Below, piece by piece: positions 13,160 through 13,287 of a DNA stretch of 15,049 bases. The first letter of the stretch is position 1. Every line of letters begins with the position of its first letter. The notes under the pieces were generated by a model that did no database searches, was not told the origin of the DNA, and saw nothing but the letters and a program-made list of their open reading frames with translations. The DNA comes from Octopus sinensis (Eukaryota), in the NCBI RefSeq assembly GCF_006345805.1, contig NW_021825575.1:1-15049 (forward strand), in the 5' to 3' direction. A program made the position numbers and the translations under genes.

Positions 13160-13287
13160 GAAGGTGTTTATAAAGCAATTTAAAATTTACACAAAATACA
13201 TTAGAATAACCGCAGCATTTAAATTTATTTTGTCAAAATATTTTCGTCGCTTTGAAACCGCGACCTGTTCACTGACAAAATTGCGTG

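What the first reader, a model, noticed from the sequence alone, without database searches (positions are those of the whole stretch)
13227..13281. Hidden hammerhead ribozyme with an inverted catalytic-core pair (G3:C8) and a dimer-type stem III
Seen: the minus strand folds into type I hammerhead topology. It has a 9-bp stem I (AUUUUGUCA/UGACAAAAU), core GUGAACA, one extra G, stem II GUCGC/GCGAC, GAA, palindromic AAUAUU, then U17. Established: the canonical core is C3-U-G-A-N-G8-A9, with C3 and G8 forming a tertiary Watson-Crick pair; swapping to G3:C8 preserves that pair. Minimal hammerheads with a short palindromic stem III occur in Penelope-like retroelements and cleave as dimers. Inference: both departures from the core consensus are exactly the compensatory pair, which argues for selection on ribozyme function. 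A search requiring CUGAnGA would miss it, so it may mark a little-annotated, possibly multi-copy ribozyme family in this lineage. I cannot tell whether this family has already been described.
Basis: partly seen in the sequence, partly recalled or inferred. Interest (0 to 1): 0.85.

Follow-up and report, generated by a model that had tools for sequence, protein, structure and literature searches.

The report
Swapped-core hammerhead in octopus Penelope element
This is one of thousands of leftover end-pieces of a Penelope-type jumping gene in an octopus genome, and it carries a hammerhead-shaped RNA whose two paired core letters are swapped (G3:C8 for the usual C3:G8); it likely still cuts itself slowly as a dimer, but cutting is untested.

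Summary
The motif is one 5'-truncated solo pLTR (13292-13087, minus strand) of an endonuclease-bearing Penelope-like element (RT, Cys linker, GIY-YIG). Tight patterns give 1085 and 2067 genomic matches for two subfamilies. In full-length copies the hammerhead lies in both pLTRs, about 55 nt before the start codon. G3:C8 is the family state (127 of 154 copies). A sister family in the same genome has C3:G8, and all 8 differences at 11 paired positions are compensatory: the real evidence for selection. Against efficient cutting: 28 of 29 sampled copies keep sequence 5' of the cut site, G3 can mispair with U17, and 10 of 154 copies have G3·G8. Minimal PLE hammerheads, the extra nucleotide, natural U3-A8 and engineered C3G/G8C rescue are published. 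I found no natural G3:C8 in print, but could not read Lünse 2017. This scan noted a G3-C8 candidate before, in a protist Penelope-like tail (e1-7369241). Verdict: new variant of a known kind; cleavage untested.

The parts
13087..13292 (-). Solo, 5'-truncated pLTR of a Penelope-like element, with the 3' tail; follows a (TG)n microsatellite
   Evidence: 171 of 206 identical to another natural copy; the only match in the window
13273..13281 (-). Stem I, 5' arm
13266..13272 (-). Core G3-U4-G5-A6-A7-C8-A9 (G3 = 13272, C8 = 13267)
   Evidence: G3:C8 in 127 of 154 family copies
13265..13265 (-). Extra G between A9 and G10.1
   Evidence: G in 143 of 154 family copies and 37 of 37 sister-family copies
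13246..13264 (-). Stem II (5 bp) and loop II (9 nt; 8 nt and different in the second subfamily)
13243..13245 (-). G12-A13-A14
13237..13242 (-). Palindromic stem III AAUAUU (A15.1 to U16.1), predicted dimer interface
   Evidence: pair 15.2:16.2 covaries with the sister family
13235..13236 (-). U17 and predicted cleavage site (between 13236 and 13235)
   Evidence: hammerhead numbering; cleavage not tested
13227..13235 (-). Stem I, 3' arm
13087..13179 (-). Remnant of the first ~30 codons of the element's ORF; the start codon is lost in this copy; about 13149-13087 is the optional tail between the two preferred 3' ends
   Evidence: alignment; ORF start in L186 and L187; two 3' ends

Best explanation
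The motif is the minimal type I hammerhead in the pLTR of an endonuclease-bearing Penelope-like element, with the core pair swapped to G3:C8 across the family; it likely cuts the element's RNA slowly after U17, as a predicted double hammerhead paired through AAUAUU and likely helped by the element's own protein. Shown: the sequence, the copy family, the position in both pLTRs of full-length RT/GIY-YIG elements about 55 nt before the start codon, and compensatory differences from a C3:G8 sister family. Inferred: transcription starts about 15 nt upstream of stem I; reverse transcription starts internally at about +150 or +209, so that copying from the first pLTR yields the many ~150-210 bp solo copies; most templates were still uncut. 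The window copy itself is a decayed solo insertion with no partner in the window, so selection acted on the master elements, not on this copy.
For: Family: 1639 first-look candidates; 1085 exact matches to a 35-nt pattern and 2067 matches (<=1 mismatch) to the second subfamily's pattern, controls 0. Parent: walking 5' reaches RT, a CxxxCxxC linker and GIY-YIG; L186 and L187 are pLTR-ORF-pLTR, pLTRs 4.4 and 5.7 kb apart; L188 has an open frame of over 1000 codons. PLE signatures: two 3' ends about 60 nt apart, inverted pairs, AT-rich targets, as described in PMC11167929 and PMC8557442. Core state: G3:C8 in 85 of the first 100 matches listed, C3:G8 in 0; 20 of 20 in the second subfamily. Sister family (57% protein identity): C3 in 36 of 37, G8 in 37 of 37; 8 differences at 11 pairs, all in 4 complete compensatory pairs, one each in stems I, II, III and 3:8 (rough chance 1e-5; 55 of 55 cells paired, slid controls 22-47%). 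Between two subfamilies whose ORFs differ at 38 of 170 fourfold sites, loop II changed while core and stem III did not. C3G/G8C partly rescues a PLE hammerhead, which needs the element's protein (PMC11167929). N17 is U (153 of 154), avoiding a G3-C17 mispair predicted at 0.99; a G3-C8 variant is reported as less active with C17 than with G17 (PMC3884650, data not shown there).
Against: No cleavage data. 28 of 29 copies sampled by a pattern 3' of the cut site keep sequence 5' of it; 9 of the 29 are one composite repeat, and the single copy starting at the site is explained as well by microhomology. G3·U17 is predicted to pair at 0.68; the AAUAUU duplex is worth only -0.2 kcal/mol; the swapped dimer (-29.4) is not better than two monomers (-28.8 open, -31.4 with G3·U17). 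G3·G8 occurs in 10 of 154 copies, among them 5' pLTRs of long copies. The extra nucleotide is G, outside the published consensus H (1 of 44 rows read has G). The sister family has A9C in 36 of 37 copies, so these cores tolerate odd changes. The covariation rests on one comparison of two lineages. U17 is common in PLE hammerheads, so it need not be an adaptation.
Confidence: 0.68

Rival explanations
1. The fold is kept as a structural signal (protein binding, start of translation or of reverse transcription) and no longer cuts to any useful extent; G3:C8 is retained for folding only.
For: 28 of 29 sampled copies span the cut site. 15 of 29 copies that begin at the shared 5' edge carry an untemplated G, as from capped, uncut RNA (11 of 22; 4 of 7). 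In the anole element, hammerhead mutants insert normally in vitro and no RNA-seq reads end at the site (PMC11167929). G3·G8 copies and sister A9C.
Against: The 3:8 pair is a tertiary pair of the active conformation (PMC3884650), so keeping it through a double swap points to catalysis. G12, A13, A14, A15.1, U16.1, U4, G5 and A6 are the same in both families.
Confidence: 0.24
2. The swap is a neutral accident in one master element, amplified by hitch-hiking; there is no selection on the 3:8 pair.
For: All copies descend from few masters, so the swap is a single event. Within the family the core is only slightly better kept than loop II (44 of 847 against 58 of 693 mismatches; 77 copies), and stem changes look like CpG decay.
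Against: Four of four changed pairs against the sister family are compensatory and none of 11 is broken. Two subfamilies of over 1000 matches each keep G3:C8 while loop II differs.
Confidence: 0.07
3. It belongs to a tandem non-autonomous retrozyme or satellite rather than to a PLE pLTR.
For: Most copies are short (150-210 bp) and non-coding.
Against: The copies are dispersed or inverted, not head-to-tail arrays; the sequence is contiguous with an RT/GIY-YIG ORF on both sides, and the 3' end of the short copies is the ORF's first codons.
Confidence: 0.01

Closest known systems
Minimal type I hammerheads of metazoan Penelope-like elements (Cervera and de la Peña 2014, PMC4209133; parts 1-2 of 4 and supplement part 2 of 3 read)
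   Same: Position in pLTRs; type I; extra nucleotide between 9 and 10.1; G10.1-C11.1; palindromic short stem III; many solitary copies and opposite-strand pairs; dimer model
   Different: Core G3:C8 (0 of 44 rows read have G3; 41 have C3, 3 have U3); extra nucleotide is G; stem I can reach 9 bp against the usual 4-5; no cephalopod among the rows read
Natural U3-A8 core variants (Perreault 2011, PMC3088659, passages; Schistosoma Cercyon elements, PMC4209133)
   Same: Natural compensatory exchange of the 3:8 pair, missed by CUGAnGA descriptors
   Different: Here a purine-pyrimidine inversion that needs two transversions, not two transitions
Poseidon element of Anolis carolinensis (Frangieh 2024, PMC11167929; parts 1-2 of 4 read)
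   Same: Hammerhead at the pLTR/ORF junction; two 3' ends making a tail; AT-rich targets; engineered C3G/G8C partly active; uncut RNA is the main template
   Different: There G3:C8 is engineered, here natural; there the ORF starts inside the ribozyme, here about 55 nt after the cut site; the protein here has a Cys linker
Neptune/Nematis clades of EN+ PLEs (Craig 2021, PMC8557442, passages)
   Same: C-terminal GIY-YIG, CX2-5CxxC linker, C-C-H-H residues in the endonuclease, (TA)n or AT-rich targets
   Different: Clade not resolved: no tree with named references was built

Membership tests
Hammerhead ribozyme, type I | Three-way junction, open at stem I, with U4 G5 A6 A9 G12 A13 A14 A15.1 U16.1 H17 | tested here: met
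Hammerhead ribozyme, type I | Consensus letters C3 and G8 | tested here: not met
   G3 and C8; no Rfam hammerhead match at E<=10
Hammerhead ribozyme, type I | Watson-Crick pair between positions 3 and 8 | tested here: met
   G:C here, C:G in the sister family
Hammerhead ribozyme, type I | Covariation of stems among homologs | tested here: met
   4 compensatory pairs of 11 between two families; none informative within the family
Hammerhead ribozyme, type I | Self-cleavage 3' of H17 | not testable with these tools
   No assay; only contigs were available, which show no RNA ends
Minimal PLE hammerheads | Extra nucleotide between 9 and 10.1, G10.1-C11.1, palindromic reduced stem III | tested here: met
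   the extra letter is G where the published consensus has H
Minimal PLE hammerheads | Cleavage as a dimer | tested here: inconclusive
   The swapped dimer is about isoenergetic with monomers in a 2D model
EN+ Penelope-like elements | Single ORF with RT followed by GIY-YIG | tested here: met
   Motifs read by eye in L186-L188; homologs named RT-domain and GIY-YIG-domain proteins; Pfam itself gave no hit
EN+ Penelope-like elements | pLTRs in direct and inverted arrangement, 5' truncation, optional 3' tail | tested here: met
Neptune/Nematis clades | CX2-5CxxC linker between RT and endonuclease; CCHH in the endonuclease | tested here: met
   read in the L188 frame against the description
Neptune/Nematis clades | Placement in an RT tree with named references | not tested
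   No named reference sequences were at hand
Non-LTR retrozymes | Head-to-tail non-coding tandem repeats of 150-400 bp | tested here: not met
   Dispersed or inverted copies, contiguous with an ORF

The most novel reading that the evidence does not exclude
A natural, catalytically active G3:C8 hammerhead fixed in a high-copy animal retroelement family and not yet in print; with the protist case noted by this scan, inverted cores recur in Penelope-like elements and mark a layer of hammerheads that consensus searches miss, possibly tuned down on purpose so that most element RNA stays uncut.
Probability: 0.35. Interest if true: 0.62.

Novelty: new variant of a known kind. Interest (0 to 1): 0.45.

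Why it matters
The 3:8 pair was proved by engineered swaps; nature was known to use C:G and U:A. A family fixed for G:C, beside a C:G sister family in the same genome, is a natural version of that experiment and gives a matched pair for asking what PLE hammerheads are for, which is still open. It also shows that descriptor and Rfam searches undercount hammerheads by thousands of copies in one genome, and that elements reported as lacking a hammerhead should be rescanned with any 3:8 pair allowed. It does not reveal a new ribozyme class or mechanism.

Tried and rejected
Rfam on the whole window gave microsatellite-driven miRNA matches below gathering scores among the 150 of 223 shown, and no hammerhead on the stretch. 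Same-strand copies 0.4-5.3 kb apart (6 stretches) were duplications of composite repeats, not pLTR pairs. A MITE reading (short terminal inverted repeat, one apparent 8-bp target duplication in L011) was dropped once the ORF was found. A splice-acceptor reading of the shared 5' edge (branch-point-like motif, pyrimidine run, AG; 326 copies) was set aside but not excluded: the 11 junctions with an extra G share nothing further upstream. Pfam gave no significant hit for 4 fragments or the 1010-aa frame. The metagenome scan gave 2 loci, both too short to reach a pLTR. My strict descriptor missed the sister family's motif because it demanded A9; it was found by eye. Within-family covariation was uninformative. 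Sequencing runs: no RNA holder listed on record; laying 4 contig sets showed the family in all 4 but no ends or splice joints. Lünse 2017 and Przybilski and Hammann 2007 are not held. The look-up of earlier findings by sequence was empty.

Full report
Observation. The minimum-energy fold contains stems I and II (z -2.55) and extends stem I by a G3·U17 pair. A relaxed descriptor finds this one site in the window and none in 300 resampled windows. Rfam has no hammerhead match on the stretch at E<=10.

Copy family. A 131-nt query gave 1639 first-look candidates in the own genome, 40 scored. A 35-nt pattern with positions 3, 8 and one loop position left free has 1085 exact matches, control 0; of the first 100 listed, 85 are G3:C8 and none is C3:G8. 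A second subfamily with a different, shorter loop II has 2067 matches at up to one mismatch, and 20 of 20 fetched copies are G3:C8 with U17. Among 154 distinct fetched copies of the first subfamily's pattern the 3:8 letters were GC 127, GG 10, GA 6, AC 3, CC 3, GT 2, TC 2, AT 1; the 3 CC rows are truncated composite copies, not true cores. The window copy spans 13292-13087 and is alone in the window.

Parent element. Copies end at one of two 3' positions, about +150 and +209; many have an inverted partner joined at the 5' side; targets are AT-rich. These are the tail and inverted-pLTR signatures described in PMC8557442 (passages) and PMC11167929 (parts 1-2 of 4). 326 copies extend further 5'. 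Following them through a microsatellite-rich UTR led to fragments of RT, a CxxxCxxC linker and GIY-YIG. L186 and L187 are pLTR-ORF-pLTR units with pLTRs 4.4 and 5.7 kb apart; L186 has one frameshift, and L188 has an open frame of over 1000 codons. The start codon lies about 55 nt 3' of the cut site, so the short copies end in the first codons of the ORF. Pfam gave no hit, so the domain calls rest on motifs read by eye and on homologs, of which 4 of the 120 listed bear names: two labelled reverse-transcriptase-domain proteins (Octopus vulgaris, 57% identity; Holothuria), one a GIY-YIG-domain protein and one a Ty3 Gag-Pol name, both from Stylophora. The Octopus protein matches the own genome at up to 99%, which is the basis for calling the host an octopus. 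The linker and C-C-H-H residues fit Neptune or Nematis; no tree was built.

Is the swap selected? The family's copies share one inherited state and count as one event. Within 77 copies fetched without using the ribozyme as bait, the core mismatch rate (44 of 847) is only a little below loop II (58 of 693), and stem changes are mostly CpG decay. The useful comparison is the sister family: its pLTR holds the same architecture with C3 (36 of 37) and G8 (37 of 37), the same extra G, and C at position 9 (36 of 37). A gap-free alignment outside loop II shows 8 differences at 11 paired positions, all in four complete compensatory pairs: stem I U-A/C-G, stem II G-C/A-U, stem III A-U/G-C and 3:8 G-C/C-G (rough chance 1e-5, 55 of 55 cells paired, slid controls 22-47%). 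Only three stem I pairs were counted, since the sister's stem I has a bulge beyond them. The five rows are two lineages, so this is one contrast. The two subfamilies differ at 38 of 170 fourfold-degenerate ORF sites yet keep core and stem III while loop II changed.

How it most likely works. Shown: position, fold, covariation. Inferred: many copies begin at one edge about 15 nt 5' of stem I, and 15 of 29 that begin exactly there have a G that the template lacks (11 of 22, p 9e-5 against 14.5% background; 4 of 7 in new loci). I read this as a reverse-transcribed cap and hence a start site; that cap copying leaves such a G is recalled, not from a call. Internal priming in the first pLTR would then give the short solo copies. 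28 of 29 copies sampled by a pattern 3' of the cut site keep upstream sequence, so templates were mostly uncut, as reported for the anole element. Stem III cannot close in a monomer, so an active core needs two copies exchanging strands through AAUAUU, from the two pLTRs of one RNA or from two RNAs; inverted partners are on opposite strands and cannot serve. The 2D model does not favour this dimer (-29.4 against -28.8 to -31.4 kcal/mol), which fits low activity and a need for protein. With G at 3, C17 would mispair almost fully (0.99) and U17 partly (0.68); the family has U17 in 153 of 154. I put slow, regulated cutting at 0.68, a non-cutting structural role at 0.24 and neutral accident at 0.07.

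Against. No assay exists. G3·G8 in 10 of 154 copies, including 5' pLTRs of long copies, may be an intermediate state, a sub-lineage that moved without the pair, or a few duplicated mutations. The extra G is outside the published consensus. Public runs were contigs only and none is on record as RNA.

What is known. Cervera and de la Peña 2014 (PMC4209133; parts 1-2 of 4, supplement part 2 of 3; one supplementary file could not be searched) describe minimal hammerheads in PLE pLTRs with the extra nucleotide, palindromic stem III, low dimer activity and a natural U3-A8 core; none of the 44 alignment rows I read has G3. Perreault 2011 (passages) reports natural U3-A8. Engineered C3G/G8C rescue is in PMC11167929 and PMC8495972. 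Searches for a natural G3-C8 and passages of four more papers showed none; searches pairing octopus with Penelope terms returned only Craig 2021, where the octopus entries seen are Naiads. Lünse 2017, the largest catalogue of such variants, could not be read, so novelty of the core is unproven. This scan's note e1-7369241 describes a G3-C8 candidate in a protist Penelope-like tail; I did not test it.

Verdict. A real, well-placed hammerhead variant of a known class in an apparently unannotated octopus PLE family: new variant of a known kind, interest 0.45.

Noticed in passing
L194:4637-4691 (+) and 36 other copies (sister PLE family): Hammerhead with C3:G8 but C at position 9 in 36 of 37 copies and a bulged stem I; also invisible to CUGAnGA descriptors.
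   Followed up: partly
L220:4258-4330 and again 364 bp downstream (+): Head-to-tail 364-bp repeat with a type I hammerhead bearing a U3:A8 core and a palindromic stem III; looks like a non-LTR retrozyme. The genome thus holds C:G, G:C and U:A cores.
   Followed up: no
L196, about 200-260 on the minus strand: A canonical C3:G8 type I hammerhead candidate with an extra A, in another element.
   Followed up: no
L031, L033, L050-L054, L091, L092, L095 and others: One inverted pLTR pair with an identical junction and identical flanks recurs at many loci (9 of 29): it is being carried inside another repeat.
   Followed up: partly
5' edge of family copies (window about 13292): Untemplated G in 15 of 29 junctions, suggesting a reverse-transcribed cap; the same edge also looks like a splice acceptor.
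   Followed up: partly
window 317-720, 11778-12256, 14213-14843, 4286-4368: Several dispersed 80-180 bp repeats at 87-95% identity in both orientations, SINE-like, with microsatellite tails.
   Followed up: no
window 6790-7620: C-rich degenerate tandem repeat with units of about 20, 58 and 128 bp.
   Followed up: no
window 2199-3496: Long compound (TG)n/TATGTGCATATATACA minisatellite, about 37 units of 34 bp.
   Followed up: no
L190:4698-8290: An LTR-retrotransposon-like Gag-Pol inserted into a copy of this PLE's ORF.
   Followed up: no
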